Below, one piece after another: positions 1 to 55,857 of a DNA stretch of 64,000 bases. The stretch's first letter is position 1. Each line of letters starts with the position of its first letter. The position numbers and the translations under genes are program-made. The notes beneath the pieces are model-generated. The model was not told the origin of the DNA and did no database searches. It worked only from the letters and a program-made list of their open reading frames with translations. Source of the DNA: Yuukianura sp. NJ FZ-2021 (Eukaryota); NCBI GenBank assembly GCA_046563655.1, contig CM102285.1:5952001-6016000 (forward strand), in the 5' to 3' direction.

Positions 1-530
1 ACAGGAACCGATGAGATTTGATGCAGGAATTGGTGTAGTATAAGAACCGAGCTGATTCGATGTAGGAACTGATGTAGAACAGGAACTGAGCTGATTCGAT
101 GTAGGAATTGATGTAGAATAGGGACCGAGCTGATTCGATGCAGGAACTGATGTAGGACAGGAACTGAGTTGATTCGATGCAGGAACTGATGTAGAATAGG
201 GACCGAGCTGATTCGATGCAGGAACTGATGTAGGACATGAACTGTGTTGATTCGATGCACGAACTGATGTAGAACAGGAACCGATGAGATTCGGTGCAGG
301 AATTGAAGTAGTATATGAACCGAGCTGATTCGATGTAGGAACTGATGTAGAACAGGAACTGAGCTGATTCGATGTAGGAATTGATGTAGAATAGGAACCG
401 AGCTGATTCGATGCAGGAACTGATGTAGGACAGGAACTGAGTTGATTCGATGCAGGAACTGATATAGAACAGGAACCGGTGAGATTCGGTGCAGGAATTG
501 AAGTAGTATATGAACCGGGCTGATTTGATG
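1..530. repeat. 39-bp tandem repeat (about 13 units)
   Basis: Unit GAGCTGATTCGATGTAGGAACTGATGTAGAACAGGAACT with variants; a variant unit recurs near 1, 275 and 470. Confidence 0.9.
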
Positions 531-633
531 ATGAAAAACTGCAGATCGATGAATGAAATGGAGAAGAAACGGGAGAAGGAGGAATGGAAGTTGATTTCAT
601 TTTACTTCTATTTTTTGTTTTTCGCTGAGGCAT
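1..633 (-). CDS. Partial ORF running off the window edge, encoding a Ser/Thr/Pro-rich 13-aa tandem repeat; unknown product (host low-complexity exon or retroelement ORF1)
   Basis: Minus strand from ATG at 633 reads MPQRKTKNRSKMKSTSIPPSPVSSPF..., then repeats such as SSCSTSVPTSNQL. I saw no stop in the units I translated; the frame is also open upstream to about 825. Confidence 0.5.
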   Translation of the reverse strand, partial: MPQRKTKNRSKMKSTSIPPSPVSSPFHSSICSFSSSNQPGSYTTSIPAPNLTGSCSISVPASNQLSSCPTSVPASNQLGSYSTSIPTSNQLSSCSTSVPTSNQLGSYTTSIPAPNLIGSCSTSVRASNQHSSCPTSVPASNQLGPYSTSVPASNQLSSCPTSVPASNQLGPYSTSIPTSNQLSSCSTSVPTSNQLGSYTTPIPASNLIGSC

Positions 634-969
634 GACTGTTGGTATGGAGATGAGGTCAGGGGTCAATCGACTTGTTGAAAACTTTCGGAGTTGTTGGACC
701 AGAGAAGGTGACCGTGAGACCAAGTGACAAAACTGGTCCGTAGAGGAAGAATTGGCCACGTATCTCTGTGAAACTTGACACAAGTTGATCAGTGGACGAA
801 GGGCTTTGATGTAGTATAAGAAAAAGTTAGATATGTGACGAATAAAAGCTTAAAAAATTCTGAAAATGAGGAGCAAAATTTTCGTGTTTACACTTTTTCA
901 CTTTTACACTTTTTCATTTTAAACGACCGTACCTATAAGTATTCTATTTACCTTGAAGTATTCCTACTA

Positions 970-25925: not shown

Positions 25926-27830
25926 TGTCTAAGTTCAAAGGACACATTTTGTTTTTTGTATATTTTATCGCACAACAATTGCAAATTGGGTCAGGCATCA
26001 CACTTCAATATTTTTTACGGTTCGCTAGACGACACAGAGCGCGTTGGTACCCCTTGTGACCGATTTCACGGAGAAAGGTGAAGGCAGGGGCCATGACTTT
26101 CTCCCCATGCACTTTCTCCACTTCCGCCGCCATATTGCACCAAATTCGCACAAATCCCCGGGCGTTTTTTGCTGGAGGCTATCGAGCAGAGTACTTTTTC
26201 TTTCCTAACATCCAAAACTTCTCAATTCCTCTGGCCTGCGGGACGTTATGGGGGTTCCGATCTTCCCGGAGAAAGTTGACATTTTCGGATCCCAAGTACT
26301 TAGTCGCAGATTTTGCGTATTGGCACGAAGCTAGGTCGGGCCAAAACAATACATCTTCTAAATTATGATGTTTTTTGATGAATGGGATGAGTTTTTCCTG
26401 CAAAAGTTGCAAATACACGTGCTGATGCATCCTGCCTTCGCAAAGAAACTGTTCCGAAGAAACAGCTTTCACTTTTTGAATGACCTTGTCGGTCATGACC
26501 TTTCGTTTTCGGGTGTTATTTGGCTTGTAGACACTTTCACCACTTGTATTGTATCTGTCTATGATACGGTAAATGGTTTTGGGTTGAATACCCTCACTTG
26601 CAAAATGTTTTACCGTGACCGATTTGACACCCGATTTGCAACATTTTTATGAAATGTTACAACACGATTCGCGAAAGATTGTCTTTCGGCTCTCGTCATT
26701 TTTGTAAAACTGATTCAAAAAATCTGAAAATTTGCAATTTTGAAGACAAGTGTGGTATGAACTTCGCGGGCAAAAGAGGGTGCCAGAAGTTATCCCCATC
26801 CCCAAAAACCTGAAGTTAGCCCCAACCCCAAAATCCTGAAGTTAGCCCCAACCCCAAAAACCTGAAGTTAGCCCCAAAAAAAAACTTTCCAGTCCCAAAA
26901 AGCTGCTCTAGCCCCAAAAAATTGTTCCATCCCCAAAAAATTGTTCTAGCCCCAAAAAACTGTTCTAGCCCCAAAAACCTGAAGTTAGCCCCAAAAAAAC
27001 TTTCCTGCCCCAAAAAATTGTTCTAGCCCCCAAAAACTGTTTAGCCCCAACAAACTGAAGTTAGCCCCAAAAAAACTTTCCAGCCCCAAAAAACTGTTTA
27101 GCCCCAACAAACTGAAGTTAGCCCCAAAAAAACTTTCCAGCCCCAAAAAGTTGTTCTAGCCCCTAAAAAATGTTCTAGCGCCAAAAAAGTGTTCTAGCCC
27201 AAAAAATGTTCTAGCCCCAAATAAATGTTCTAGCCCCCAAAAAACTTTCCAGCCCCCAAACTTAATGAAACTGAGTATTATTTCTACAACAGGGCTGGAA
27301 AGTTTTATGGGGGCTAGAACATTTATTTGGGGCTAGAACAGTTTTTTGGGGCTGCAAATTTTCTTTGGGGCTAACTTCAGGTTTTTGGGGCTAGAACAGT
27401 TTTTTGGGGCTAGAACAATTTTTTGGGGCTAGAACAGTTTTTTTGGGCTAGAACAACTTTCTGCCATTTTTGGGGATGGACGTTAGTTTCAGCCGTTTTT
27501 GGGGATGGACAGTACTTTCTGCCATTTTTGGGAATGGACGTTAGTTTCAGCCGTTTTTGGGGATGGACAGTAGTTTCTGCCATTTTTGGGGCTGGACATT
27601 AGTTTCAGCCGTTTTTGGGGATGGACAGTAGTTTCTGCCATTTTTGGGGATGGACATTAGTTTCAGCCGTTTTTGGGGTTGGGGCTAACTTCAGGTTTTT
27701 GGGGTTGGGGCTTACTTCAGGTTTTTGGGGTTGGGGATAACTTCTTGCTCCCGGCAAAAGAGCTAATTCCAAGGGCTCACTAAACCTAAGAACTGTATGA
27801 TCCAAAAAATGTGTCCTTTGAACTTAGACA
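25926..27830 (-). mobile_element. Decayed IS630-Tc1-mariner transposon of DD37E type
   Basis: 25-bp TIR TGTCTAAGTTCAAAGGACACATTTT at both ends (TA on the left). The broken transposase at about 26000-26700 has VLFWPDLASC...NPHNVPQARGIEKFW, with 37 residues between the D and the E. Confidence 0.88.
26778..27752. mobile_element. Foldback (Mutator/FB-like) element with subrepeat-built arms and 9-bp TSD, nested in the DD37E element
   Basis: GGCAAAAGA|GGGTGCCAGAAGTTATCCCC ... GGGGATAACTTCTTGCTCCC|GGCAAAAGA; arms made of GCCCCAAAAA-type subrepeats. Confidence 0.9.
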
Positions 27831-37299: not shown

Positions 37300-38222
37300 T
37301 TATTAAGTAGCTTTAGCTACTTTATAAAAGCGTTTTCGTCCGTCATCGCGTTTTCTGTCCTAGACCCATAAGGAAAGCCTGTCCGTCATCGCGTTTTCCG
37401 TCCTAGCATAGGGATCACCATTGAAAAAGTAGTGAAAATGTGAGACAAATTATCTCGGGAACTACTGGATCGATTTTGCTCTAGTTTTTTCTAGTGACTA
37501 TCTCATGACCCGGACATGGTCACTATTGAATATTATCCCGGTGTGTCAACTCCTTCCGGGTCAAAATCAATTTCAAAGGTCACGTGAATTTATGCATGGA
37601 GGAAGTGTGGGTAAAAAAATCTCTGCTTGTGAGACTGGAAAGGCAATTGGCATGGGAGTTGGTTCTCTGCTTAGCAAAAAATCTATTACGCAGTTGACTA
37701 CATACTCATGCACTGTGTCCAGTGTCCATTCCTTCCATCCGTTTCTTCTGCTGTTGCGTCGTCCGTATCCCAACTCCACATCTGTCACTTGTCACACCTC
37801 ACTTGTCACCTGTCACACTTCATCTGTCACCTGTCACATGTCACGCGTCACCAGTCACGCGGAAAAGTGGGGGGAACACCCACCCCCTCTCCCCCGGGAC
37901 ACCCACCCCTCTCCCCCTGGGCACCCACCCCTCTCCCCCTGGGCACCCACCCCTCTCCCCCTGGGCACCCACCCCTCTCCCCCGGGGCACCCACCCCCGC
38001 GCTCCTGTGGTGCGGAGCGAAAAAGTGGGGGAACACTCCCACTCCCCCCGGAGGGGCGGGAAAGTGGCGTAACACACCCCCGCGCTCCCTGGGGTGCGGA
38101 GCGAAAAAGTGGGGGAACATACCCCCACTCCCCCTGGGGGCTGATTAAGTCCTGTTTGTTTAAAAAAAAAACACCTAAACGCTAAAGCTACTTTTTTATG
38201 TGCGGTTTACAACCGGTTTATT
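37300..38222 (+). mobile_element. Helentron/DINE-1-like non-autonomous element, copy A
   Basis: Subterminal IR AAGTAGCTTTAGC/GCTAAAGCTACTT, GTCCGTC motifs, central GC-rich ~21-bp minisatellite, 3' mini-hairpin CGGTT..AACCG, T-rich ends; near-identical to 47668-48703. Confidence 0.75.
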
Positions 38223-39219: not shown

Positions 39220-41327
39220 TTAATCCAACGCAACTTTACACTTGCGGTACATAATTTCAGCAACAAATGTGATGAGGCAGATGAGTGCAAGTACAGCGTG
39301 TACAATAAAAACTCCAAGCAGTAGACCACTGCCCCACGAGAGTCGCTCAAGTAAATTTCCCGGTAAATTTTGAATTGTGAGCAATTTTTCCACTTCTTTC
39401 TTGACTTTGAATTTGTACGTTTCCGGACCATACAAGATGTGCCGAAACAGTCCGCAATGTATGAGGGACTGGAACTGCCGCTGGATATGACCACCACGGT
39501 CAAAAGTCATTGACCCCATAACCCAATATGTATTGTAGGAAAAGTACTTTTCTTTCCCGTAGTACAACTTCTTAGAAGCCTTGGAATCGACTTGTACTAA
39601 ATCTAAAAATGTTTTTCTCAAACCGAATGTATCGTCTATGTAAATTTTGTTTTCACACTTGAGAATTTCTCGCAGAAGTTTTTTGTCTCTCTCCGAAAAT
39701 TCCACAAAAATTGGTGTAATGCTTTGTATCAATTTTGGAAACATTTCATTTAGAACAGTCGAGTTAGCTGGGTATAATGTGCCCAAGCCGGCGTGACGAT
39801 AGACTCCGTGGATGAAAGGATTTAAATCCATCGCCTTCATAACGCATTTCCAATTGTCCTCCATTCGCTTAGTATAGTTCCACATCTCAAGTTCCTCCAA
39901 GCAGGATTTGTCTCCGTGAACAATAGCTGAATGTATAATTGGAACTTTAAATTTTGCCGCGAAGGCGTCACTGACTGATTCCACCCTAGTAGTCGGTAGT
40001 GGCGCGGTTAAGTCAGCGGTTACTTCAGAACGATACAGATTTGACAAAATAACCAAAATTAAAGCGAGTGTAGCCAAGAAAAATTTTAGGCGATAGATTT
40101 TTTCAATTTACCAGGAAACGTAATGCTTTGTTCAAATAGCAATCGAATCACAAAAAAGACGTAATTGTCCGCACAACGCTTGTACCGAACTACAACAAAC
40201 ACAAAATATACAGTAACTATGAGTGAGGTCAAAACGCCAATCCAGGCGTCATGGTTAAACGGTTTTGTAAACCCTAATAGACTAATAAATTTTTCTACGC
40301 CGGCGCAAGTCATGAATTCAAAGTCGTGTGTGGTTTGGTGGTAAACCGAAGTGTATGGTAGCGTTTTTCTTTTGCCGCCAGACATGTCAATAGTTGGTGA
40401 TGCGTCCTGGAAAACATAAATCTGTTTTCGAAAGAAGTCCCTCGTAGTCCAATATTTGCGCTTAAATTTTATTACGTTCCGACCCAAATTTGATTTTGAT
40501 GCAGCTGAAGCTGATTGGTTGAGATACCGGGTTACGCTTTTTAAAATAATTTTGGAAACGGGGCCACGTACATCACGATCGTATACTTCCGTACTCCTCC
40601 CGATGAAAAAATCAGACCTATTGAATTCAGATTCAAGCATGAGCCATGTCATGGGACACGCATGAAGTAGGACTTTTGTCAGTTCAGTATCCAGTAGTGA
40701 CCGAAAAGGGACTACTGCAACATTTCTATCTATATTGCGTGTTCGTAGAGCGTATGTATTGCATGGTGGTGGGGAAACTGTTGTCACCTCGGTAATATTG
40801 CTTGAAATACGGTACAGGAATAGTGGCACGGACTGTTCACTCCATGTTTCGTCACACTTCTCAAGGTACCGGTCTTCTTTTTCCGCCATTTCGTGAGAGT
40901 GTAACCACACAAAGTAAATGTTTCGGCCGTAGCATGGTTGCAGTGTCATTGCATCGTAGGTATCGCACTCCACTAGCCAGTTGAATCGAGACGGTAGTCG
41001 ACATAGCTGCGCAGTAGTGAGTTCGTGAACAAAATTTAGAATTAGTGCGCATGCATGATTTTTTACGAATTTTCTAACTTGTAATGCAGTAAATGTAGAG
41101 TTAATTTGGGTTTCATTTTGTGGTAGCACGATTAGTTGAATAGGTTGACTTGAAAAATAATTCAATTGTAAACTTGAGGCAGCCTGCGCGACCACGACGA
41201 TTACATGGCAGTAGTCGTATCCGAGATTTTCAAATTTAGCTGCCTGTTCGAAATTGGTGGACATTATGGAGAAAATAGTTGCAAAATTTATGAAAAGTTT
41301 GAAAAGTTGGTGCACTGACTTCATCAT
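39220..41327 (-). pseudogene. Divergent ionotropic-receptor-like chemoreceptor, copy 1 (single frameshift)
   Basis: Two ORFs (40086-41339, 39220-40077) collinear with intact copy 3. One base is missing in a T-run near 40102 (GATTTTTTC versus GATTTTTCTC). Confidence 0.8.
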
Positions 41328-41871
41328 GTGTGCTAACAAACAACTGCCTTGGTTTCAATTTCTCACTTGAATTTCTGGTTTTAATGGAACATTTAGCTGT
41401 TCATGGGACTGTCTATTCTTGAATTGTGAGCTTAGAAGTTTCTGGCCTTCAACTTTTTCTTGTTAATCAAGATTGTACATATTAGCGTGCTGAGATATCA
41501 AATGATAGCTCCGGAGTTGTGTCGAGATGGTAATCTTCCAGGACATGACAATTTTCGTGCCGATAGTAAGCCATATTGCCAAATGAGTTGCTACCCAACG
41601 CATTTCATAAATTTCACCGATAGGAATTAGTTCGTAAGGTACTTTACTTCGAAAGTAAACTATTCCGACGCGAATTAATGCGAAAGCCGAATGTCTGCTT
41701 TCTGTCTGCTGCCTAACCTATTACCTCCCCTGCTACATTTTAGGAGAAAAATGTAAATACCGCTTTCACTTATTACCTCCAATGTCCAAATTCCGTACAC
41801 TAAGCTAACAGAATTAAATTATATTGGTTTGGGTTAAATTCCTTAACCTAACTTAACATATTTAATTTAAG

Positions 41872-43996
41872 TCACTTGTTACCTATTCTAGAAATAACAG
41901 TTAATCGAACTTTACACTTGCGGTACACAATTTCAGCAACAAATGCGATGATGCAGATGAGTGTGAGTACAGCGTGTAAAATAAAAACTCCAAGCAGTAA
42001 ACCACTGCATCACGAGAGTCGTTCAAGTAAATTTCCCGGTAAATTTTGAATTGCCAAAAATTTATCAACTTTTTTCTTAACCTTGAACTCGCTCGTTTCC
42101 GGACCTTCCAGGATGTACCGGAACAGTCCAGAATGTACCAAAGACTGGAACTGCCTGTGCACATGCCCAGAGCGATCAAAGGTGATTGAATCCATCATCC
42201 AATACGTATTGTAGGAAAAGTACTTTTCTTTCCCGTAGTACAACTTCTTAGACGCTTCAGAATCGAGTTGTACTAAATCCAAGAACGTTTTTGTTAAGCC
42301 CATTCCATTATCTATGTAAATTTTGTTGTCACACTGGATAATTTCTCGCAGAAGTTCGGTTGGTTCGTTTCTATTTTTAACAAAAATTATTGTAATACTT
42401 TCGATTAATTTTGGAAACACTTCATTCAGAACAGTGAAGTTAAATGAGTGGGATGTAGGGACGTGACGATAGACTCCATTGATAAAAGCAATTACGTGTC
42501 TTGCACGCTTAACCCACAACAAATTGTGCTCCGTTCGCTCAGTATAGTTCAACTGCTCAAATTCCCGCCAGTCGGGTGTGTCCCCACCCGGTTTTTGAAA
42601 GGGAACTGCAACTTTAAATTTTCCCGCCATAGCGTCACTGACTGATTCCAGCTTAGAAGTTGGTAGTGGGGCGGTTAAGTCGGCTGTTACCTCAGAGCGA
42701 TACAGATTTGACAATGAAACGAAGAATAAAGCTAGTGCAGCCAAGAGAAATTTGAGGAAATAAATTTTGTTCAACGTACCAAAAAAGTTAATGTTTTGTT
42801 CAAACAGCAACCGAATAACAAAAAAGACGTAGTTGGCTGCAGAACGCTTGTATCGAACTACTGCATACACGAATAAAATAACAGCTATTAGTGAGGTGAA
42901 AAGACTAATCCAGAGGTCAAGTTTAAAAGGTCGTGTTAACCATAATAGACTAAGAAATGTGTCTGCACCGGCGCAAGTAAGAAATTTAAACTCATGACTG
43001 TTTTGGTCGTAAATGTAACCATATAGTTGCATGAGTTGTGTTGTTGTACCAAATTCCTCAGCATTTTGTAGGAATGCCTCAGGGTACACAACCAACCACT
43101 TTAAATTCCAGTCGTTGCGTACAAATTTGATTACGTCCGGACCCAAATTTGATTTTGAACCTCTGGAAGCTGATTGGTTGAGATAACGGGTTACGCTTTT
43201 TACAATGTTTATGTGAGGGGTATAGGTTATTATGTGAGGTATATCAGGAGCGTCTTCTACATTCCCTCCGGTTGAAAGCAAAACATGTTTGCCATCAGAT
43301 GCATCGGATGCCCATACAATGGGACACGCGTGAAGTAGAATATTTCTCAGTTCAGTATCGAGTAGTGACCGAGATGGGATTTGCACAACATTTGTATCTA
43401 GCCTGCGTAGAGCATATGTATTGCATGGGTACGGTGTAATTGTTGTAATTTCGATCACATTGCTTGAGATGCGGTAGAAGAATTGCGGTATCGAAGGCTC
43501 CATCCACGGTTCATCACACTTGTCAAGGTACAGCTTGTCTTTTCCCACCATTTTGTGGGAGAGTAACCACACAAAATAAATGTTTCGACCGTTACACCAT
43601 GGCAATTTTGTTGCCTTGAAGTTACACTGCACTAGCCATTTAAATCGAGTCGGGAGTAAACACAGTTGCGCCGTAGAGAGATGATGCACCAAATTTAAAA
43701 TTAATGCGCAAGACTGATGTTTTACCAATTTACTGATTTCCAAAGATTTAATTGTAGAGTCAATTTGGGTTTCATTTTGTGGTAGAACGATTAGCTGAAT
43801 TGGTTGATTTGAAAAGTATTTCAATTCAAAGTTCGCTGTCGCCTGCGTCACGACAATTACATGGCAGTTTGTGCATGACAGTATTGGCACCAAATGATGG
43901 CTCCGAAGATGTGTCGAGATGGTAATCTTCCCGAACATGGACAATTTTCGTTTCGATAGTACGCCATTTTGCTGAATGAGTTACTACAAAGCGCAT
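41872..43996 (-). pseudogene. Divergent ionotropic-receptor-like chemoreceptor, copy 2 (premature TGA, probable 5' frameshift)
   Basis: 644-codon ORF with FLTCAG..RPFKLDLWISL and LSNLYRSEVTADLTAPLP. TGA at 42010-42012 where paralogues have Trp; the last TM continues in frame to 41872. Confidence 0.8.
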
Positions 43997-44757: not shown

Positions 44758-46896
44758 CTAACCTATTCTAGAAATAGCAGTTAAGGCAACGCAACTACAC
44801 TTGAGGTTCATAATTTCAGCAACAAATGCGATGATGCAGATGAGTGTGAGTACAGCGTGTACAATAAAAACTCCAAGCAGTAAACCACTGCCCCACGAGA
44901 GTCGCTCAGGTAGATTTTCCGGTAAATTTTGAATTGCGAGCAATTTTTCCACTTTTTTCTTGACTTTGAATTTGAACGTTTTCGGACCATACAAGATATG
45001 CCGAAAAAGTCCGCAATGTATGAGGGACTGCAACTGCATTTGGATATGACCACCACGATCAAAGTCCATTGGCCCCATCATCCAATACGTATTGTAGGAA
45101 AAGTACTTTTCTTTGCCGTAGTACAACTTCTTGGACGCTGCAGAGTCGAGTTGTACTAAATCTAAAAATGTTTCTCTTAACCCGAATGTATCGTCTATGT
45201 AAATTTTGTTTTCACATTTCAGAATTTCTCGCAGAAGTTTTTTGTCTCTGTCCCAAAATTCCACAAAAATTGGTGTAATGCTTTGTATCAATTTTGGAAA
45301 CATTTCATTTAGAACAGTCGAGTTAGCTGGGTATAATGAGCCGTAGCCGTAGCCGGCGCGACGATAGACTCCTTGGATAAAAGGATTATTTCCATTCATT
45401 GCATTCATAACGCATTTCCAATTGTGCTCCATTCGCTCAGTGTAGTTCAACTGCTCAAGTTCCTCCCAGCAGGGTTTCCCTCCATACCATGAGTCTATAA
45501 TAATTGGAACTTTAAATTTTGCCGCAAAAGCGTCACTGACTGATTCCAGCCTAGTAGTTGGTAGTGGCGCGGTTAAGTCAGCGGTTGCCTCAGAACGATA
45601 CAGATTTGACAAAGTAACCAAAATTAAAGCGAGTGTAGCCAAGAAAAATTTTAGGCGATAGATTTTTCTCAATTTACCAGGAAACGTAATGCTTTGTTCA
45701 AACAGCAATCGAAGCACAAAAAAGAAGTAATTGTCCGTACAACGCTTGTATCGAACTACAACAAACACAAAATAAACAGAAACTATGAGTGAGGTCAACA
45801 GACCAATCCAGGTGTCAAGGTGAAAAGGATTTGTAAACCCTAATAGACTAATAAATGTTTCAACGCCGGCGCAAGTCATGAATTCAAAGTCGTGTGTGGT
45901 TTGGAGGTAAACCGATATGTATGGTAGCATCGTTTTTCTTTTGCTGCCATACATTTCAACAGTTGGTAATGCGTCCTCGTAAACATCAATCGGTTTTACA
46001 TAGAAGTCACTCATAGTCCAATATTTGCGCTCAAATTTTATTACGTTCGGACCCAAATTTGATTTTGATGCAGCTGAAGCTGATTTGTTGAAATATCGGG
46101 TTACGCTTTCTAAAATATTTATGGAAACGGGGTAATGTACATCAGGATTGTATAGTTCCTCATTCCTGCCGATTAAAAAATCATGAATTGTGGATCCAGG
46201 TTCAACCATGACCCATCTCATGGGACACGCATGAAGTAGGACTTTTGTCAGTTCAGTATCCAGTAGTGACCGAAAAGGGACTACTGCAACATTTCTATCT
46301 ATATTGCGTGTTCGTAGAGCGTATGTATTGCATGGTATTGGGGAAACTGTTGTCACCTCGGTAATATTGCTTGAAAGTCGGTACAAAAATAGTGGTACCA
46401 AATGCTGACTCCATGTTTCGTCACACTTCTCAAGGTACTGGTCTTCTTTTCCCACCATTTCGTGAGAGTGTAACCACACAAAGTAAATGTTTCGGCCGTA
46501 ACATGGTTGCAGTGTCATTGCATCGTAGGTATCGCACTCCACTAGCCAGTTGAATCGAGACGGTAGTCGACATAGCTGCGCAGTAGTGAGTTCGTGAACA
46601 AAATTTAGAATTAGTGCGCATGCATGATTTTTTACGAATTTTCTAACTTGTAATGCAGTAAATGTAGAGTTAATTTGGGTTTCATTTTGTGGTAGCACGA
46701 TTAGTTGAATAGGTTGACTTGAAAAATAATTCAATTGTAAACTTGAGGCAGCCTGCGCGACCACGACGATTACATGGCAGTAGTCGTATCCGAGATTTTC
46801 GAATTTAGCTGCCTGTTCGAAATTGGTGGACATTATGGAGAAAATAGTTGAAAAATTTATGAAAAGTTTGAAAAGTTGGTGCACTGACTTCATCAT
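44758..46896 (-). CDS. Divergent ionotropic-receptor-like chemoreceptor, copy 3 (intact, intronless)
   Basis: About 712 aa: N-terminal hydrophobic leader, FMTCAG..NPFHLDTWIGL (pre-M1/M1), LLFEQS pore region, LSNLYRSEATADLTAP (M2), LIHCGLF and a final TM helix. Confidence 0.82.
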   Translation of the reverse strand: MMKSVHQLFKLFINFSTIFSIMSTNFEQAAKFENLGYDYCHVIVVVAQAASSLQLNYFSSQPIQLIVLPQNETQINSTFTALQVRKFVKNHACALILNFVHELTTAQLCRLPSRFNWLVECDTYDAMTLQPCYGRNIYFVWLHSHEMVGKEDQYLEKCDETWSQHLVPLFLYRLSSNITEVTTVSPIPCNTYALRTRNIDRNVAVVPFRSLLDTELTKVLLHACPMRWVMVEPGSTIHDFLIGRNEELYNPDVHYPVSINILESVTRYFNKSASAASKSNLGPNVIKFERKYWTMSDFYVKPIDVYEDALPTVEMYGSKRKTMLPYISVYLQTTHDFEFMTCAGVETFISLLGFTNPFHLDTWIGLLTSLIVSVYFVFVVVRYKRCTDNYFFFVLRLLFEQSITFPGKLRKIYRLKFFLATLALILVTLSNLYRSEATADLTAPLPTTRLESVSDAFAAKFKVPIIIDSWYGGKPCWEELEQLNYTERMEHNWKCVMNAMNGNNPFIQGVYRRAGYGYGSLYPANSTVLNEMFPKLIQSITPIFVEFWDRDKKLLREILKCENKIYIDDTFGLRETFLDLVQLDSAASKKLYYGKEKYFSYNTYWMMGPMDFDRGGHIQMQLQSLIHCGLFRHILYGPKTFKFKVKKKVEKLLAIQNLPENLPERLSWGSGLLLGVFIVHAVLTLICIIAFVAEIMNLKCSCVALTAISRIG

Positions 46897-47667
46897 GTGT
46901 GCTAACAAAGAACTGCCTAGGTTTCAATTTCTCACTTGAATTTCTGGTTTTAATGGAACATTTAACTGTTCATGGGACTGTTTATTTTTGAATTCTGAGC
47001 TTAAAAGTTTCTGGCCTTCAACTTTTTCTTGTTAATCAAGATTGTATTAGCGTGTTGAGATATCAAATGATAGCTCTGTAGTTGTGTCGAGATGGTAATC
47101 TTCCAGAACATGACAATTTTCGTGCCGATTGTAAGCCATATTGCCAAATGAGTTGCTACAAAACGCATTTCACGAATTTCACCGAAACGAATTACTCCGT
47201 AAGGTACTTTACTTCGAAAGTAAACTATTCCTACGCGAATTACTGCGAAAGCCGAATGTCTGCTAAAGTTGAATTAGTTCGAAAAATAGTTTTTATAAGC
47301 GATAACCACATATAAATTATCATTTTAACGCAAAATTTAATCGGCCGGGTTGTAGCTTAAATTTCCTTACAGTACAACGTACTTAAATAGTCCACCGGGT
47401 CGGATACCCAAAAAATGAATTACTCCACCGTCCCTAATAGTACACCGGGTCTCCAATACTCCATCGGGTGTTTGGTAGTTATACCACAGGAGTATAAGAA
47501 CCGGAGAAGTTTTAGTTGAGCTAATAGTATAGCCAGTGTTGCTGGATGGATAAAATATTACTTCTACTCTCTTCTAAGGTGGTGGGTATATCTGGATTTA
47601 ATTGGTTTCTTTCGGACCAAACTCAATTTTGTCCATCACGAACGGGATTTTTTCCTGATAGATCCAT

Positions 47668-48703
47668 TTATTAAGTAGCTTTAGCTACTTTATAAAAGCG
47701 TTTTCGTCCGTCATCGCGTTTTCCGTCCTAGACCCATAAGGAAAGCCTGTCCGTCATCGCGTTTTCCGTCCTAGCATAGGGATCACCATTGAAAAAGTAG
47801 TGAAAATGTGAGACAAATTATCTCGGGAACTACTGGATCGATTTTGCTCCAGTTTTTTCTAGTGACTATCTCATGACCCGGACATGGTCACTATTGAATA
47901 TTATCCCGGTGTGTCAACTCCTTCCGGGTCAAAATCGATTTCAAAGGTCACGTGAATTTATGCATGGAGGAAGTGTGGGTAAAAAAATCTCTGCTTGTGA
48001 GACTGGAAAGGCAATTGGCATGGGAGTTGGTTCTCTGCTTAGCAAAAAATCTATTACGCAGTTGACTACATACTCATTACTCATGCACTGTGTCCAGTGT
48101 CCATTCCTTCCATCCGTTTCTTCTGCTGTTGCGTCGTCCGTATCCCACCTCCACATCTGTCACTTGTCACACCTCACTTGTCACCCGTCACACTTCATCT
48201 GTCACCTGTCACGCGTCACCCGTCACGCGGGAAAGTGGGGGGAACACCCACCCCCTCTCCCCCGGGACACCCACCCCTCTCCCCCGGGGCACCCACCCCC
48301 TCTCCCCCGGGGCACCCACCCCTCTCTCCCGGGGCACCCACCCGCTCTCCCCCGGGGCACCCACCCCTCTCCCCCGGGGCACCCACCCCCTCTCCCCCGG
48401 GGCACCCACCCCTCTCTCCCGGGGCACCCACCCGCTCTCCCCCGGGGCACCCACCCCCTCTCCCCCGGGGCACCCACCCCCGCGCTCCTGTGGTGCGGAG
48501 CGAAAAAGTGGGGGAACACTCCCACTCCCCCCGGAGGGGCGGGAAAGTGGCGTAACACACCCCCGCGCTCCCTGGGGTGCGGAGCGAAAAAGTGGGGGAA
48601 CATACCCCCACTCCCCCTGGGGGCTGATTAAGTCCTGTTTGTTTAAAAAAAACACCTAAACGCTAAAGCTACTTTTTTATGTGCGGTTTACAACCGGTTT
48701 ATT
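47668..48703 (+). mobile_element. Helentron/DINE-1-like non-autonomous element, copy B
   Basis: Same sequence as copy A with a longer CCCCGGGGCACCCACCCCTCT minisatellite. Confidence 0.75.
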
Positions 48704-49578
48704 TAGCAATGGGTACCTTCCATGATTATAATAATATAAAGTTATATTACATCTAATATAGTAATATTAAATAACAACTTAAGCATCCACTTTGTAGAAA
48801 TTCAAGTCCAAATTGTGGTTAAAAAGTTAATGCAAAATGGAATTCCCACTGAAAAAAAACAGTTTCTTGAAGGAAGGTTTTCATAAAGACAGTTTCAGAG
48901 AAAACTTTCCTTCTCAATCTCGATGTATTGATCCTTGACAGTGTACTTTCTCCAGAAAATCTGAAAAAAATTTATTGAAATGCCACAAACTTCAATTAGA
49001 ATTCGGAAATAGAAACACATAAATTCTTGTGAAATAAATGTCTAATATGCAATTAAAACAAGGTAGGGCGATGGTCAAAGGTTGATATTTGAATATGGCT
49101 CAATATTGTCAGTGCACATGTAGGGCTTTTTTTTTGTGTACAATTGCCCCAAAATGTTAAAAAACCGTTTGCATCAAAACGTTGTTCAACTTGAGCTGTG
49201 AACAGTATGCACCCTCTTCAATATTTTTTTGATGCACAATATTTTTTTCTTACATTCAAAAATACGGAGGTTATTTCGTAACCTTCTAACAAAAAGAAAA
49301 TAATTCAAAAGACCTTGCATTCAATTTGAAGAAATCAATTGCCGACGCAAACAAGATTGAACGAGCGACGTCGGTTGACCTCACTTTTAGTACCTATTAC
49401 CTGTTCAATAGAAGCTTTGTTTCAGAATTTCAAGAAAAACGTATTCCATAGACAGCCCGGTTCCGTGCTCATCAGTCAATTAAAAAAGATATCAAAGGTG
49501 GTAAATGCTACAGATATTTTTGTGAAATTGAATTTTACGTTATATTGTAGCTTTGACAGATTCACACAAATCAACAGA

Positions 49579-50397
49579 ATGAGTTGCATCGCCGTCGTTA
49601 CGACTCTGGGATTAATTGTAGCAGGAGAGGTTATGTGCGACGACTTATTTCTGCTGCAAGACTTCGTAGTTAAGGCGAACAAGTTCATAGTAAAAGTGGA
49701 TGATCCCGAAGTTGTTAGAGAAGCTGACGAATTCATTCGTATGGGGAAGAAAAGGAAGATTCCTATTGGTATAATCTGCAAAACGAAAGCTCCATACAAT
49801 CCCGACTGGAGTTACCATTTTGGTAAAACACTCCATTTTATTTTGTACAATATTTTTTGGTTTGATAGGAATTGCAATATGATGTGCAATGGGAATGTAT
49901 GACATGTATGACACCAACTTAATCACAGTAGCACTTTGGGTAAGCTGGAGTCGAAGAATACTTCCTCAAATTATCCTATTCAAAAGTCCTCCCTCCATCC
50001 CGTTTCCTCACTGAAACATCGAAAAACCTAAATTTTTGGAGGAAGGCAGGGAGTTTCCGTAAAAAGCGTATTCTAAAGTATATGCTTTGCTTTTTGCTGT
50101 AAATAGCTTTTTTTGCTGTCTTTGCTTTTTATGCTTTAAAACCAAGTAATTTGAGTAAATATTCGGTACACATTCTAGTCAACTTCTCAAAATGAAAACA
50201 TTCTTTTTTGAAAACTTCCAGATCCAAAAACTGTTCATTTCACTGACATGGCCGTGGAAGTGTGTGACGCGTCCATGGCTTACCTAGAGGAGCACTTCCT
50301 TGAAGCAGGAGGAGCCTTCCTTCCAGGAAACAAGTGGTGCCCATGGGGCGCACCTTTAGTGGGCCGAGTCAACGATACAACACTGAGCTCATATTAA
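49579..50397 (+). CDS. Small, probably secreted BP74/CaM-BP15-like protein of bacterial type (exons 49579-49822 and 50222-50397, 139 aa)
   Basis: Phase-1 GT..AG splice joins [24 protein letters not shown] to [43 protein letters not shown]; hydrophobic N-terminus [16 protein letters not shown]. Confidence 0.8.
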
Positions 50398-50582
50398 CAA
50401 TGCGTTCTCCCAGTCAAGTATGGAGTTAAGCATACTTGAGTTTGTTTTAACAGTGAGGTTAGGGAATCTACTGCTTGATGACATTAGAGAGTATATTTAT
50501 TCATAGGTGAAAACAAAAGAAAACTAAGGGTAAATTTCAGGAATTTCGTTGCATTTCCTGGGCTTACTACAGAATAAGTAGG

Positions 50583-52159
50583 TTATACGTTATTTAGACA
50601 ACGCTCTGATGCTTCCCGCACTGTATTCAAGGCGTCGACACGTCCATTCCCAAACACGTTATTAGGGAATTGATAGCCATTGATGACGCCGCAGTCCTGG
50701 TCATTTTCTGAAAAGGTCACGTTCTTTACGGCATTGGCCTCCAGCACATTTTTTATAAATTCAAAATCTGATGCGGGGCAAATTGATTTCAAAAGTACGA
50801 TTACTCCCGCGACATGTGGACATGCCATTGATGTACCAGATTGAAACTCGTAGTCCTCGTCATGTTGGATTCCGGCGGAAATGATATTGAGTCCAGGGGC
50901 AGAGATGTCTGGTTTTTGTTGACCTTCAAAGTAGGATGGCCCTCTGGAACTAAACCCTGCAATTCCATCTTCTGGAGTTGTGGCTGCAACCGAGATAACA
51001 CCAGCCAGAGAATCGGCAGGAGAGTAAATGGTTCCACATTGTGGCCCATCGTTCCCAGCTGCGAAAACGGGAATGATGTTCGCAGCATGCCACGCACGTA
51101 TCACTGCATCGTAAAACTTGTTTCCACCGACTCCTCCCCATGAGTTGCTGTAAAGATTATACAAGTTGAAAACTAGAGGCATATATTAAAAATTTTGCAA
51201 CCGCGAATATTGCATTTCAATGTGATTCGAACTAACCTCACGACATGTGGAGCCTTCCCGCAATCCTGTTGGCTTCCATCGTATTTATGTGGACAAAGCA
51301 TGAACTGAGCACATTCCAGTAGTGCGGACTCCAATGCACCAAATGGACCAAAACCCTTGCATGCAATCCACTTGGCACCCGGAGCAACTCCAATTCCAAA
51401 CCTAATCAAAATTAACTCAAATCGTTACATTTTCTTATATGCCAAGCGAAATGCTTTTGATTACCTGCCAGCGATTGTTCCTGTTACATGAGTCCCATGT
51501 CCCTCAGCATCATTTGGAATTTGACTTTTGAAATATGGGTCATACCAGGAATAAAAGTCACCACGGTAACTGTCGCTGATAGCTGCATGAGTTGACCTAG
51601 CACCGGTGTCAATTATTCCCACGGTGACCCCTTGCCCAGTTCCTGCAATGCCCCATGCCTCCTTGACCATGATTCTCTCAATACCTCAAACACTGTCGCC
51701 AATTTTCCAATCTTGAGAAACTGAAGTATGATTCGGATCGTCCAGTGGAATAGTAATTTCTTGATGGATTCTTTTCACTTGCTCAATTTTAGTAATCATA
51801 GTGATGAGAGGAGCATCGGCAGCCTCAATGTAGAGTTGGTTTGAAATCCAGAAAGATTTTACCTTGACCGAGTTCAACTTCTCGGATTTAAGAAGAGAGA
51901 GAACTGCTGCCTGTGACCTCGTGACATGTGAGGTCAGGATTTGGTATACCTCCATTGCGGCGACGTCGGGTTTCTTCTGTTGCCTTTTCTGTGCCAGACT
52001 AGAGAGGACTCCGTTCGTATTTTCAAAGGAAACCAAGACATCGACTCTGCCGTTGACCATCAGCGACTGCGTTATACCAGGATCTACTTTCCGCTCAAAA
52101 CCGAAAGTCAACGCTGAGTTCAAAACTATACCACAGATTAGATAGAAAAGTAATGTCAT
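50583..52159 (-). pseudogene. Subtilisin-family (S8) serine protease, bacillopeptidase-F-like, 3 exons, with one in-frame TGA
   Basis: Signal peptide, propeptide (SFWISNQLYI), IIDTG, GHGTHVTG, GVAPGAKWIACK, NSWGG, FAAGN, SGTSMACPHVAG. TGA at 51686-51688 in DSV*GIERI. Confidence 0.85.
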
Positions 52160-54110
52160 TCTGCCGATTTCTAGGTACGTTATTCAACTTTTGTTAAAGT
52201 GTGTAATTGTTCTAAAAAGTGTGAAAATCGTTTTTTTGACTTTGCTCGATGCTGTCAGGAATTATATAGGGGACAATTTGTAGGATTCATTATTTTCCCA
52301 GGGTCGAAGTTATGAAAAACGGGAAATTCGTAACAGCTATGGCTACATAATAAAAACATCAAAGTCAGAAAATTGTTGCAAAACAGAATAGCAAACGCCG
52401 TACAGAAAACTATTATAATCTTTTATTCCCTCTTTCACTCTTCACTACATAAATTAACCGCAGTTAGGTTTCTAGAATTGAAACATTTAAAAAATTTGTA
52501 AAAAATGTAAAAAAGTAGTATCATGCAAATTTGATATTTGTGACATGTTGCCACAGAACACTTTTGCATTGACTGTCACTATTAGAAAGGTCATTTGAAA
52601 GTTTAACAATTTTAGACAACGACTAACCTTCGCTTTAAACTTTTTTCCGTGGAATATTAGTCATTTATTGCGAAAATATTTCTTAAAAATTCGCTGTTGG
52701 ATGTCCGTGACACCATTTTCCAGATTTTGAAAGTCAAATTTTGAAACCGAATGTAATTATTTACAGATATTCCCTCTAATTGCAACTAAAACTTTGACCT
52801 TGTGTTCTCGCGTTGTCGGAATTCGAGTGGTACACGTAGACTTGGATTTATGTACCATAAATCATGTGAAGCACCGGAAATAAAGGAAGCTTAGCAAATT
52901 TCAACTCCCGCGCAATCGTTTAACCCCGAGTTTATTTTATTCGTAAAAGAAGAACTTTTTTTTTGTCAAATCAAATCAGTCTCAATGACATTTATGGAAA
53001 TATGTTTTCATGAGTTGTTCATTTCAACGGAAATGTTTCAAAATTGTCATGACAGTTTTACGAAACTTTTTAGATAATTTTCTAAGGTCTTAAGTGACGA
53101 CATGTCAAACTTAATTTGAATGTCTGTAAATGTTTAGTTGGTGAATGTAATACCCATCTCTGATGTAAAATTGTGTTAAAATGGCTTAGGGGAAATTGAG
53201 ATTGATGGTCAGTTTTTAGAATGGTGATGAATTGTTAGTTTCTGGATCTTTGTTTGTGGCAGCATCATTTGTCACTCTGAAACATAAATCCGCAGTCATC
53301 ACAAGTCTCGCATTTCATCACAAACGTCTTTGCATTTCAATTCAAAAGAGATTCGGAGTGTTACAAATAGTAAAACGGCATAGTGGTGCCAAGTGGTGGT
53401 CGGAATTGGTGCGTCATGGTGTCTAGCTTTTATTCCAATGTCTAGATTACCTGTGCGTTCTAGAGAATTTCGGAGATTTCGATCTTAGTAAATCCCGATT
53501 TGTGCATTCATTTTTAATGTAATTGCAAAAATTAACTTAACGTTTCCCCTAACAACCGTGGCGTGTTATTTTTGATTCTGCCCCACTGTGCAGGAGTAAG
53601 CGCATGCGTTCGTGTACAAACATTTCCTCTGGGTAATGAATTCTGCGTATTTCGAAGCTTTGATATATCCAGAAACTTCCCTTTGAACGAACAAAGCATC
53701 CTGTTAATGCCAGCGCTTGTCACCACTGCAGAAGTTAGCAAAAGAATAAATTTTTTCAGTACTTTTTATCTACAGTCTACATTACAGTCTACAGTATTTT
53801 TTGCGAGAAATGTATTTCAATTTATTTATTTGAATTCAATTTATTAAGTTTGAGAGAGTAGTTAGTAAGGGTTGTATTTTTTTTCAACACTAGGATATTG
53901 GTCCCGATTAAGCGACTCGACTTTAGTTTAAATGCGCAATGGTTTAAATATTGAACACTCGGAAGCAACGTAACAAGTTTTGCTATAGTAATCAACTTTA
54001 TAGCTAACAAAATAGCTAAGAATTTTAACAGACTGTTATTCTCTGACTGTTTTTCTTACATAAAGAAATGCATCAAAATTCGCCATGATCCTAATTCATA
54101 AATCTGCTTA

Positions 54111-55264
54111 TTACAACAAAATTTGAATTGTTCCAGTGTAAACTTCTTGGATATGGAACTTCAGGCCAGACAATAGTTCACACACGTGAATTGCAGAACG
54201 TGTATGCTCTGTCAGTGGGGCTAAGGTTGTAAATGAAGAATTCTTTGAAGGCTCTTGCAATTTGGCTAGACTCATATAGATTATCAACTGATCCTGCATG
54301 AAACTGTCCACCGAAACGTGCTCGTGGGAATTGATTGTGGTATTAACTTCTAACTCAACGGCTTTAATCGCCGCATCAACTTCATCCGCAGTTGGTTTGG
54401 GTGGTCTACCTTCTACTAGTTTGTAGAATCCAAATGAAGCATGTTCGTACTTGAGGAAATATTCAACGGATGCGTAGCTGACTCTTCTTGTTTCTACAGC
54501 TGTAGCCTTTACAGAATTCATCTGAGCTAATAAGCGCGCTTGATTATCCTTGAAAAGGGGCGGCGTGAGATTTAAGATTGCACTAACTTCCAACAGCCTT
54601 CCTCTTGTATTCATGTTAAGATGATGAAATTTGCCACCCCCGACAGTCGACAGAACAACAATACCTCCGCCTCTAGGGAAATAACCTGTAAAAATTTGAA
54701 CTTGAATTTGATCGGGAGTTGAAAAAATAGACGAGCAACAACAATAATAATATACCTGGACGAATTTGCTGGAGATTACAGTTGTACCCAATTGCTGTCA
54801 TAGAAGGAAAGAAGACGCGGTTCATGTAGTCAGTGTTTGGTGCCTTTAACACGTGCGTACCACCAATAATCGTTACTCTCCGCGAGACGGAAAGGGATAG
54901 CAGATATGGCAAAAGAGCTTGTACACAAAGCATAACGCTTCCGGCAGTCACCAGGTCTATGGTTTCCTCGAAATTGGAGCTACCACTTAGGTCTGTATTC
55001 TGCTCTTCGCTAGGATTTAAGTCAAAGGCGGTGGTTCCTTTCCTAATTTCAGAGGTCTTTGCTCCAGTGAAACGTTTCAAAGCTAGAATGCTGTAGAGAT
55101 GCTGTGAAGCAAGTCCGGGATTTGGTCGATTGGCTCTGATTTTAATCACGCGTATTTTCTTTCTTAGAATACTTGCGAGGGTGACAGCGTTCCGAATGAG
55201 TTGACCTCCTCCTTCTCCAAAAGACCCGTCTATCTCGACCCATTTGTTATCGTTGGAGTCTGCC
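54111..55264 (-). CDS. RTCA: RNA 3'-terminal phosphate cyclase (two main exons ~54756-55264 and ~54144-54686; termini uncertain)
   Basis: IDGSFGEGGGQLIR, IRANRPNPGLASQH, TAGSVML, GGTHV, GYFPRGGG, MQDQLIIYM, LTEHTRSAI. Confidence 0.9.
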
Positions 55265-55857
55265 TGTAACAAAACCAAAGCTTGCTTTATACAGTATAGG
55301 TATAGTGTTTCCTTTTTTCCCGTTTCCTTTTTTTCTGTTGAAAGCAGCTTTCGGTTCTGTTCATATACAAAAGTTGCCTAACCTAAACTATTTTTCTATT
55401 CTGTTCTTGAATTCATGCAAACTTGCAAATCATTTTTTCCGCGGTACAAAAATTGGCAAATTGCACGACGATTCTAGCGCCGATTTTCTACCTATGGCAC
55501 GAACATTCTGATTACCGATCCGCGGTGCATTAAAATATCTCATTATCCGTCTGTAAATTGTAAATGCCTTAAAAACTGCAATAAGATCTCTAATTTAGGT
55601 TGCATACAGGATTCCGGTCCCAGTTTTCAAAATTTTCTAAGTACAAAGTAGGTTTGGTGTGACCTGGTGCGGTCACAGGTCAATCCGAAGGTTTCTCCGC
55701 ACACTTTAGGTTGATCTGTGACCTCAGGGAAGGGTCACAGGGTCATACTTTATAGGACCAACAATGATTCCCTTATGACCCTGAACAAACCTCGTAGAGG
55801 TCATTTTTGGGGTTGTCTAAGGTCAGTTTTTGAAAAGTATACTACGAAAGGGCATGG

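What the first reader, a model, noticed from the sequence alone, without database searches (positions are those of the whole stretch)
49579..50397. Hidden two-exon gene for a bacterial-type BP74/CaM-BP15-like protein in an animal genome
Seen: the ORF track gives only an uninformative 187-aa frame, but splicing 49822 to 50222 (GT..AG, phase 1) yields a clean 139-aa protein with a hydrophobic leader and the motif [51 protein letters not shown]. Recalled, not searched: this motif characterises small actinobacterial proteins annotated calmodulin-binding protein and the Dictyostelium CaM-BP15/BP74 N-terminal domain; I do not know it from typical animals. Inference: a horizontally acquired gene of unknown function that has gained an intron, which argues against contamination.
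Basis: partly seen in the sequence, partly recalled or inferred. Interest (0 to 1): 0.82.

Follow-up and report, generated by a model that had tools for sequence, protein, structure and literature searches.

The report
Microbial-type BP74 gene in a springtail-like genome
A small two-exon gene, sitting among ordinary arthropod genes, encodes a probably secreted protein of a family otherwise seen almost only in bacteria and slime moulds, so it is most likely a foreign gene that the animal acquired and kept.

Summary
Joining 49579-49822 to 50222-50397 (GT..AG, phase 1) gives a 420-nt, 139-codon frame. Each exon alone passes Pfam's cut-off for BP74_N (PF23621), on adjoining profile positions 7-61 and 63-111. 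The split codon supplies the family's conserved Asp.

The best full-length match is a dictyostelid "CaM-BP15" (41%), and the best local match is a Nocardiopsis "calmodulin-binding protein" (53%).

The host is a eukaryote. Its RtcA is most like those of two springtails. The window has no N, and host genes lie on both sides.

Exon composition matches the host genes. Contigs from two studies carry the gene with its intron. 21 of 25 metagenome relatives are uninterrupted at this point.

Still open:
- **Donor.** The gene sits beside the dictyostelid with support 87/90, but a placement with an actinomycete is not rejected (p-AU 0.276).
- **Expression.** No RNA run was found.
- **Other animals.** Their absence from the family was tested only on partial listings.
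- **Function.** It is unknown biochemically. Domain fusions and a convergent secreted subtilase gene suggest an extracellular module linked to hydrolases.

Verdict: a new member of a known kind, of moderate interest.

The parts
49579..49822 (+). Exon 1: start codon, hydrophobic leader (about residues 1-20) and the N-terminal half of the BP74_N domain. It ends with the first base of the split Asp codon.
   Evidence: Pfam BP74_N E 2e-11, profile 7-61. All 6 listed read variants in this exon are silent third-position changes.
49823..50221 (+). Intron, 399 nt, GT..AG, phase 1, GC 0.34. It holds a very high-copy repeat at about 50052-50145.
   Evidence: Contig depth rises to 24,917 in 50099-50145, against roughly 60-880 in most other bins of run X1. 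DNA contigs of two studies run across both intron borders (records 5, 6, 26).
50222..50397 (+). Exon 2: C-terminal half of the BP74_N domain, with the conserved EVCD, GGAFLPG and WCPW motifs, an 8-residue tail and the stop codon TAA.
   Evidence: Pfam BP74_N E 8.9e-17, profile 63-111. phmmer gives 286 cluster representatives at E <= 1e-3.
50583..52160 (-). Neighbouring convergent gene for a secreted subtilisin-type (S8A) protease. It has about four exons (50583-51185, about 51173-51424, 51461-51685, 51686-about 52160). Its stop codon lies 186 nt from the BP74 stop. It is a possible functional partner, which is an inference only.
   Evidence: Pfam Peptidase_S8 E 4.3e-29. The nearest solved chains are prokaryote-type subtilisin-like proteases and site-1 protease. 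A diverged contig joins 50351-50418 to 50564-50700 in three runs, so the gene pair exists in a second copy or allele (table 5).

Best explanation
This is an intact host gene of foreign (microbial or amoebozoan-type) origin, in an arthropod genome closest to springtails. It encodes a 139-residue precursor made of a hydrophobic leader and a single BP74_N domain. Shown: the exon structure at DNA level, family membership, physical linkage to host genes, host-like base composition, and an intron that relatives lack. Inferred: the gene was acquired by horizontal transfer long enough ago to take on host composition, gain a spliceosomal intron (which now holds a host repeat) and diverge strongly. Inferred mechanism, at about 30% odds: the protein is secreted and acts outside the cell as a small non-catalytic binding or regulatory module that works with secreted hydrolases, most plausibly the subtilase encoded tail-to-tail beside it. 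The grounds are that BP74_N domains in microbes are fused to secreted peptidases, peptidase-inhibitor modules and other hydrolases, and that the dictyostelid relative CmbC is found in secretomes and extracellular matrix. The name 'calmodulin-binding' rests on a putative assignment in Dictyostelium that has been copied to other records. It is not evidence of function here.
For: - Gene model and family.
- Conserved positions: all 7 invariant columns of the 54-sequence alignment A1 (N, E, C, L, P, C, W) are kept. 20 of 26 columns that are at least 90% conserved among 67 other rows are kept.
- Constraint: of 15 codons touched by the 18 listed read variants, 10 are silent.
- Host linkage: no N in the 64 kb. 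Ge1/EDC4, DHHC, C2H2 and RTC genes lie in the window. The best named RtcA matches are Orchesella dallaii 56% and Folsomia candida 54%, and the next named eukaryote is Ceratitis at 40%.
- Composition: exon GC 0.46 and GC3 0.48, against host exons at GC 0.38-0.48 and GC3 0.32-0.45; intron GC 0.34.
- Independent DNA support: five holders in two studies. One contig of the second study spans 49312-50284, including the whole intron.
- Family range: of the 120 listed from 964 profile hits, 33 carry an organism name. 32 are bacteria, 1 is a diatom and none is an animal. 459 of 601 pattern matches in prokaryote species genomes encode relatives. The large Atlas clusters are bacterial.
- No close relative: the highest identity to exon 2 among 1.84 billion representatives is 69%.
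- Intron absent elsewhere: 21 of 25 metagenome loci are uninterrupted.
- Extracellular hydrolase link, among the 50 longer members scanned (49 carried BP74_N): S8 (P0097), C25 (P0133), Kazal (P0022, P0103), PepSY (P0022), serralysin C-terminal domain plus RTX (P0120), VanY (P0144), GH25 (P0049), S1/P1 nuclease (P0135), hemopexin (P0056, P0190), CBM5/12 (P0134).
- CmbC in Dictyostelium secretome and slime-sheath matrix: passages read in PMC7079120.
Against: - No RNA evidence for transcription or for the 49822/50222 junction.
- The window's protein differs at two strongly conserved positions by radical changes (R>D, E>R) and sits on a very long branch. This could mean relaxed constraint.
- The diverged second copy changes a family-invariant Tyr.
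- The variant table was partial (103 rows not shown), so the excess of silent changes is only indicative.
- The window's S8 is just 31% identical to the S8 part of the one S8-BP74_N fusion, so there is no special kinship.
- No recurrent neighbour was found around 80 bacterial BP74 genes.
- Some bacterial members lack a leader, so the family is not purely extracellular.
- No structural relative gives a functional clue.
- 844 of the 964 profile hits were not listed, so animal members could exist unseen.
Confidence: 0.72

Rival explanations
1. The donor was a eukaryote of the dictyostelid/amoebozoan kind, or both lineages drew on the same unsampled microbe, rather than an actinobacterium. On this reading the gene is a eukaryote-to-eukaryote transfer into a soil arthropod that eats such organisms.
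For: The window's protein is sister to Heterostelium CaM-BP15 in the FastTree, quick and careful trees (SH-like 90; SH-aLRT 88; UFBoot 87 / SH-aLRT 90). The only full-length alignment that includes the leader is to that protein (residues 2-130 against 3-127).
Against: Support is below the tool's star threshold. The window branch is 1.92 long, so long-branch effects are likely. The AU test does not reject a pairing with Nocardiopsis (p 0.276). Local identity is higher to actinomycetes (53%, 49-51%) than to the dictyostelid (41%). Only one dictyostelid and one diatom were available as eukaryote rows.
Confidence: 0.25
2. The gene is an old eukaryotic gene inherited vertically and lost in most lineages. 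No transfer took place.
For: Members occur in three distant eukaryote groups: a dictyostelid, a diatom and this arthropod. The gene has host composition and an intron.
Against: No animal name appears among the 33 named rows of 120 listed, nor among the 28 cluster look-ups, 26 of them family members. No representative is more than 69% identical to exon 2 in 1.84 billion. The diatom copies lie in a different, starred clade from the window gene. Bacterial phyla are mixed throughout the tree, as expected of a mobile bacterial family.
Confidence: 0.07
3. The locus is a decaying or silent relic, an untranscribed foreign insert, and not a working gene.
For: No RNA holder was available to show otherwise. 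There are radical changes at two conserved positions and a very long branch. A diverged copy carries an in-frame 100-102-nt gap in exon 1 and a changed invariant Tyr.
Against: The frame is open over 139 codons across a correctly phased GT..AG intron. All seven invariant family positions are kept. All 6 listed variants in exon 1 are silent, and 10 of 15 touched codons overall are silent. Base composition is fully host-like.
Confidence: 0.1
4. Contamination or chimeric assembly: a microbial fragment wrongly joined to animal DNA.
For: The family is overwhelmingly microbial.
Against: There is no N in the window and host genes lie on both sides. Exon GC is 0.46, whereas most metagenome loci have GC 0.47-0.71. 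A 399-nt AT-rich intron interrupts the domain exactly at a codon and holds a high-copy host repeat. The gene, with its intron, is in contigs from two studies.
Confidence: 0.02

Closest known systems
[quoted passage not shown]
   Same: Single BP74_N domain behind a hydrophobic leader, and a similar length (130 against 139 aa). It aligns end to end at 41% and is the nearest row in every tree. CmbC is reported in secretomes and slime-sheath matrix (passages of PMC7079120), which fits a secreted role.
   Different: The window protein is much more diverged (branch 1.92 against 0.34). It has R>D and E>R at conserved positions. Its gene carries a phase-1 intron inside the domain. Calmodulin binding of CmbC itself is called putative in the papers read.
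Bacterial 'BP74-related protein' / 'calmodulin-binding protein' (for example Nocardiopsis gilva P0221, Streptomyces WP_365625481.1 = P0017)
   Same: Same Pfam domain with the same conserved motifs (YNP..W, EVCD, GGAFLPG, WCPW). This group gives the highest local identity, 53% over 98 residues.
   Different: The bacterial genes are intronless and mostly high-GC. Some lack a leader. The window gene has host composition.
Multidomain microbial BP74_N proteins (for example P0097 S8+BP74_N, P0022 Kazal+BP74_N+PepSY)
   Same: The same domain, here covalently linked to secreted peptidases, inhibitor modules and other hydrolases. The window places a stand-alone BP74_N gene next to a secreted S8 gene.
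   Different: In the window the two are separate, convergent genes. The S8 parts are only 31% identical. A functional link is inference.
Foreign genes already described in springtail genomes
   Same: A microbial-type gene in a springtail-like genome. One listed abstract describes microbial-type terpene synthase genes in 26 springtail genomes (PMC13638087, search listing only). The Folsomia candida genome paper was opened only to search two supplement files. That it describes acquired genes is my recollection.
   Different: No paper in the library mentions PF23621, BP74_N or BP74-related proteins. 'calmodulin', 'BP74' and 'CaM-BP15' do not occur in the 2 held supplement files of the Folsomia genome paper.

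Membership tests
Pfam BP74_N (PF23621) | Score above the curated gathering cut-off (27 bits) over the whole domain | tested here: met
   Exon 1 scores 44.2 bits on profile 7-61. Exon 2 scores 61.4 bits on profile 63-111 of 114. Each half passes alone and they are colinear.
Pfam BP74_N (PF23621) | Conserved core residues (N of YNP, E-x-C-D, L-P of GGAFLPG, W-C-P-W) | tested here: met
   7 of 7 invariant columns of A1 are kept. 24 of 33 columns invariant in 12 of the 13 A2 rows, and 20 of 26 columns at least 90% conserved among 67 rows, are kept.
Pfam BP74_N (PF23621) | The family fold | not tested
   Only the homologue P0012 was modelled (pLDDT 93, pTM 0.81). The window's joined protein could not be handed to the structure tool.
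Calmodulin-binding proteins | Demonstrated Ca2+-dependent or independent binding to calmodulin | not testable with these tools
   The name is 'putative' in the Dictyostelium papers read and is propagated to bacterial records.
Horizontally acquired gene in an animal genome | Physical linkage to bona fide host genes on uninterrupted sequence | tested here: met
   No N in 64 kb. Ge1/EDC4, DHHC, C2H2 and RTC genes flank it. RtcA is nearest to springtail RtcA. Contigs of two studies hold it.
Horizontally acquired gene in an animal genome | Phylogeny nests the gene inside a donor clade with support | tested here: inconclusive
   Sister to a dictyostelid at 87/90 on a long branch. Pairing with an actinomycete is not rejected, p-AU 0.276.
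Horizontally acquired gene in an animal genome | Absence from other animals | tested here: inconclusive
   0 animals among 33 named rows of 120 listed. 844 of 964 hits were not shown. No representative is above 69% identity. No animal genome could be searched directly.
Horizontally acquired gene in an animal genome | Domestication: spliceosomal intron, host composition, expression | tested here: inconclusive
   The intron and composition criteria are met at DNA level. Expression could not be tested.

The most novel reading that the evidence does not exclude
A springtail-like lineage took up a BP74_N gene from soil microbes or amoebae, gave it an intron, and keeps it as one half of a duplicated tail-to-tail pair with a secreted prokaryote-type subtilase. 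On this reading the pair is a two-gene secreted module in which the BP74_N protein binds or tunes the protease, for digestion of or defence against microbes. That would give the first functional handle on a domain family with no known function and no solved structure, found in at least 459 prokaryote species genomes.
Probability: 0.15. Interest if true: 0.7.

Novelty: new member of a known kind. Interest (0 to 1): 0.5.

Why it matters
Springtails are already noted for foreign genes, so one more acquired gene is not a surprise in kind. The case is clean, though: it was missed by ORF listing, has host-like composition, carries an intron that relatives lack, and is present in two studies.

It also concerns a widespread domain family with no solved structure and no literature in the library. 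An animal that has kept such a gene, next to a secreted protease, offers an experimental route into what BP74_N domains do. The fusion partners listed here give a testable direction, namely extracellular hydrolase biology.

Tried and rejected
- **RNA evidence.** No RNA holder was listed among five runs. The laid contigs showed no 49822/50222 joint, and all behaved as DNA. This says nothing about expression.
- **Own genome.** None is held.
- **Word-index search with exon 2, longer proteins.** 1 hit among 15 candidates.
- **Atlas search with exon 2.** No usable hit.
- **Structure.**
  - The PDB search by sequence profile gave 0 hits at E <= 1.
  - Foldseek against the PDB gave 0 of 228 rows at E <= 0.001.
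  - VIA-align wide gave a best Z of 3.9, with OB-like small barrels (single-strand binding proteins, sugar-binding subunits of AB5 toxins, SilF). That is below the level at which a shared fold can be claimed.
  - The Atlas structure search gave weak cyclophilin-like rows at TM 0.39-0.47.
- **Bacterial gene neighbourhood.** In 80 loci no recurrent neighbour with a family was found. The largest non-self group covered 9 loci and had no Pfam match. My ORF picking in high-GC DNA was crude.
- **Kinship of the window's S8 to the S8 of the S8-BP74_N fusion.** Only 31% identical, so rejected.
- **Close relatives in metagenomes.** 25 loci, with a maximum identity of 66% and none with the intron.
- **Exact look-up of the two exon-level frames in the protein collection.** Not present.
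- **Cluster look-ups.** Of 28 look-ups (26 of them family members), only P0012, P0017 and P0153 carried organism names.
- **Literature.**
  - 'BP74': 203 papers, and the 15 listed were unrelated.
  - 'BP74' plus Dictyostelium: 1 unrelated paper.
  - PF23621: 0 papers.
  - BP74-related / BP74 N-terminal / BP74_N: 0 papers.
  - springtail + horizontal gene transfer + calmodulin-binding: 0 papers.
  - Folsomia genome paper: 0 occurrences in the 2 supplement files held. Other supplements, PDFs and bioRxiv supplements were not visible and may list such genes.
- **My first guess that the tandem 650-720-aa ORFs at 39-47 kb are glutamate-receptor-like.** Not supported; they have no Pfam match.
- **First profile scan of genome contigs.** It failed for lack of a conserved stretch and was repeated with the smaller alignment A2.

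Full report
**1. What is in the sequence**

The frame 49330-49902 holds its first ATG at 49579. After residue 81 of the protein the family-like sequence stops at 49822, where GTAAAA follows. It resumes in another frame after TTCTTTTTTGAAAACTTCCAG, at 50222, and runs to TAA at 50395-50397.

Joined by coordinates in a script, the two parts give 420 nt, 139 codons plus stop, with the intron in phase 1.

Pfam's BP74_N model (PF23621, cut-off 27 bits) matches each exon on its own:
- Exon 1: 44.2 bits, E 2e-11, profile positions 7-61.
- Exon 2: 61.4 bits, E 8.9e-17, profile positions 63-111.

The single position between the two matches is the split codon G|AT, an Asp that is invariant in alignment A2. 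BLASTP of the joined protein crosses the junction without a break in family members. The window holds no second copy: other tblastn hits have E of 0.84 or worse.

**2. Family and relatives**

phmmer with exon 2 against 1.84 billion cluster representatives found 286 at E <= 1e-3 and 47 at E <= 1e-10. None reached 1e-30, and none was more than 69% identical.

A profile of 54 small members (A1) found 964 proteins at E <= 1e-5, of which 120 were listed. 33 of those carry an organism name: 32 bacteria and one diatom with a tandem pair of domains. The bacteria are mostly actinomycetes, plus Blastocatellia, Nannocystis, Hahella and Thalassoglobus. No animal is among them.

[quoted passage not shown] They named a Streptomyces match as 'calmodulin-binding protein / BP74-related protein'.

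The large Atlas clusters are bacterial, from Cyanobacteriota, Actinomycetota, Bacteroidota and Verrucomicrobiota.

The window's protein is a diverged member:
- Its best matches are 53% over 98 residues (Nocardiopsis gilva) and 41% over 129 residues (Heterostelium).
- It keeps 7 of 7 invariant columns of A1.
- It keeps 20 of 26 columns that are at least 90% conserved.
- Two of the six departures are radical, R>D and E>R.

**3. Host and authenticity**

No whole genome is held for the window. The window has no N. It carries genes with Ge1/EDC4 WD40, DHHC, C2H2 zinc-finger and RNA 3'-phosphate cyclase domains.

The cyclase exon is most like unnamed metagenome or transcript proteins (55-61%). Among named records it is most like Orchesella dallaii (56%) and Folsomia candida (54%). 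Archaeal records follow at 40-45%, and the insect Ceratitis is at 40%. I read the host as an arthropod nearest to springtails, though not close to those two genera. This is an inference from one gene.

Exon GC is 0.46 and GC3 is 0.48, like neighbouring exons (GC 0.38-0.48, GC3 0.32-0.45). Intron GC is 0.34.

Five runs in two studies, under two coded organism labels, hold the stretch. When laid, their contigs cross both intron borders. One contig of the second study spans 49312-50284 with 13 changed letters and 21 gap letters. The intron carries a repeat at about 50052-50145 whose summed contig depth reaches 24,917, against roughly 60-880 in most other bins of run X1.

Contamination or a chimeric join is therefore very unlikely.

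**4. Constraint**

The read table lists 18 variant bases inside the coding sequence, touching 15 codons. Ten codons change silently, including all six in exon 1.

The five changed codons lie in exon 2. They belong mainly to a diverged copy (12 differences in 131 nt). In that copy the family-invariant Tyr is changed, and Phe becomes the family-consensus Leu.

The table was cut (103 rows not shown), so this is indicative only. The same runs show a copy with a 100-102-nt in-frame gap in exon 1. They also show a contig that joins the 3' end of the BP74 gene to the 3' end of the neighbouring protease gene through different spacer sequence (table 5). The gene pair therefore exists in a second allele or paralogue.

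**5. The intron is new**

Of 25 metagenome loci encoding relatives of exon 2 (41-66% identity):
- 21 have the N-terminal half of the domain directly upstream in the same frame.
- Two identical-looking loci (L091, L092) do not, in that frame.
- One lies at a contig end.
- One has stops.

The 80 prokaryote loci match as single stretches. The intron is thus a feature of this gene and not of the family as sampled.

**6. Where the gene came from**

Three trees were built: FastTree on 333 domain rows, and quick and careful IQ-TREE runs on 68 rows by 112 columns. The 68 rows were chosen by me: all named rows, the best matches to the window, and the fusion proteins. The remaining 265 rows were left out.

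All three trees put the window gene beside the Heterostelium protein (SH-like 90; SH-aLRT 88; UFBoot 87 / SH-aLRT 90). The window gene sits on a branch of 1.92, against a median of 0.30. The bootstrap had not fully settled.

An AU test does not reject the best tree that pairs the window gene with Nocardiopsis (log-likelihood 16.8 lower, p-AU 0.276). Bacterial phyla are interleaved across the tree, and the diatom copies sit in a separate starred clade.

Foreign origin is the best reading, but the donor is unresolved. It could be bacterial, amoebozoan, or a common unsampled source.

**7. What the protein may do**

The N-terminus is a hydrophobic leader, like that of the dictyostelid and many actinomycete members. 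Other bacterial members start directly at the domain.

In passages of a review I read, Dictyostelium CmbC is called a putative calmodulin-binding protein. It is listed among proteins found in conditioned buffer and in slime-sheath matrix (PMC7079120). The gene name cmbC for CaM-BP15 comes from a table in PMC2920877.

A model of the dictyostelid homologue built with A1 is confident (pLDDT 93, pTM 0.81) and shows a mixed beta/alpha domain. It has no clear solved relative:
- No PDB sequence match.
- No Foldseek row at E <= 0.001.
- Best VIA-align Z of 3.9.

Of the 50 longer family members I scanned (of 73 that are at least 240 aa long), 49 carry BP74_N. Many combine it with extracellular modules:
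- Peptidases: Peptidase_S8, Peptidase_C25, serralysin C-terminal domain with RTX repeats, VanY.
- Peptidase-inhibitor or propeptide modules: Kazal (two proteins), PepSY.
- Other hydrolases: GH25 lysozyme, S1/P1 nuclease, DUF4434.
- Binding and other extracellular modules: hemopexin (two), CBM5/12, Big_2, carboxypeptidase-regulatory-like domains, and others.

The conserved polar residues (Asn, Glu-x-Cys-Asp, His, a second Cys) could form a disulfide plus a binding site, or a metal or thiol centre. I could not inspect the model's coordinates.

In the window, the next gene lies tail to tail, 186 nt away. It encodes a leader-bearing subtilisin-type S8 protease in about four exons. Its nearest solved and curated matches are prokaryote-type subtilases and site-1 protease.

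My preferred mechanism, at about 30%, is a secreted non-catalytic module that binds or modulates secreted hydrolases, first of all this protease. The remaining probability is spread over an unknown small enzyme or metal-binding protein, a matrix or cuticle component, and true calmodulin binding.

Evidence against a specific pairing:
- The window's S8 is only 31% identical to the S8 part of the one S8-BP74_N fusion.
- Bacterial BP74 genes show no recurrent neighbour.

**8. Comparison with what is known, and novelty**

The gene is a member of Pfam BP74_N by every feature I could test. It is not shown to be a calmodulin-binding protein.

Acquired microbial genes are a described feature of springtail genomes. 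One listed abstract reports microbial-type terpene synthases in 26 springtail genomes (PMC13638087, listing only).

I found no paper that mentions this family under its Pfam accession or name. I also found no mention of calmodulin or BP74 in the two held supplement files of the Folsomia genome paper. Supplements that I could not see may list it.

I rate it a new member of a known kind. It is a well-supported acquired gene that routine ORF or gene calling would miss, in a domain family whose function is open.

**9. Verdict**

- Observation: confirmed.
- Interpretation: partly supported. Family, host type, intron and authenticity hold. A bacterial donor, absence from other animals, and expression are not shown.
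- Interest: 0.5.

Noticed in passing
window 50583-52160 (-): A four-exon gene for a leader-bearing subtilisin-type (S8A) protease lies convergent with the BP74 gene. Its nearest solved and curated matches are prokaryote-type subtilases (Tk-SP-like, dentilisin PrtP far below cut-off, mycosin) and site-1 protease, not furin-type convertases. It may itself be of foreign origin. A diverged contig keeps the 3' ends of both genes together.
   Followed up: partly
window 50052-50145: A stretch inside the intron has summed contig depth of up to 24,917, against roughly 60-880 in most other bins of the same run. Many contigs break there. This points to a very high-copy dispersed repeat of the host. It has no second copy in the window.
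   Followed up: partly
window 39220-41354, 42010-43980, 44758-46923 (-): A tandem array of three paralogous, apparently intronless ORFs (656-721 aa; the first is split into 295 and 422 aa by a frame break). They have hydrophobic segments and no Pfam match at E <= 0.001. This looks like a lineage-specific membrane protein family.
   Followed up: partly
window 37436-38206 and 47804-48662: Two copies of one element flank the tandem array. Each has a G+C-rich internal tandem repeat that is open in all six frames, with Pro/Gly-rich translations. This raises GC to 0.44 in 48-50 kb.
   Followed up: no
window 54111-55377 (-): This is the RNA 3'-terminal phosphate cyclase gene. After springtail records (54-56%), the next named matches are DPANN and other archaeal cyclases (40-45%), ahead of an insect (Ceratitis, 40%). 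This may only reflect the search's word sampling.
   Followed up: no
window 1-849 (-): A Ser/Pro-rich tandem repeat is open in three frames at the window's start and runs off its end.
   Followed up: no
window 26179-26646 (-): An ORF has a weak winged-helix HTH_29 match (E 6.5e-4, below cut-off). It reads to me like the remains of a Tc1/mariner-type transposase; that reading is unchecked.
   Followed up: no
loci L096 and L099 (metagenome contigs): These are two intronless BP74_N genes on low-GC contigs (0.36 and 0.39). One has Pro-Thr linker repeats. They are unlike the high-GC majority, and their organisms are unknown.
   Followed up: no
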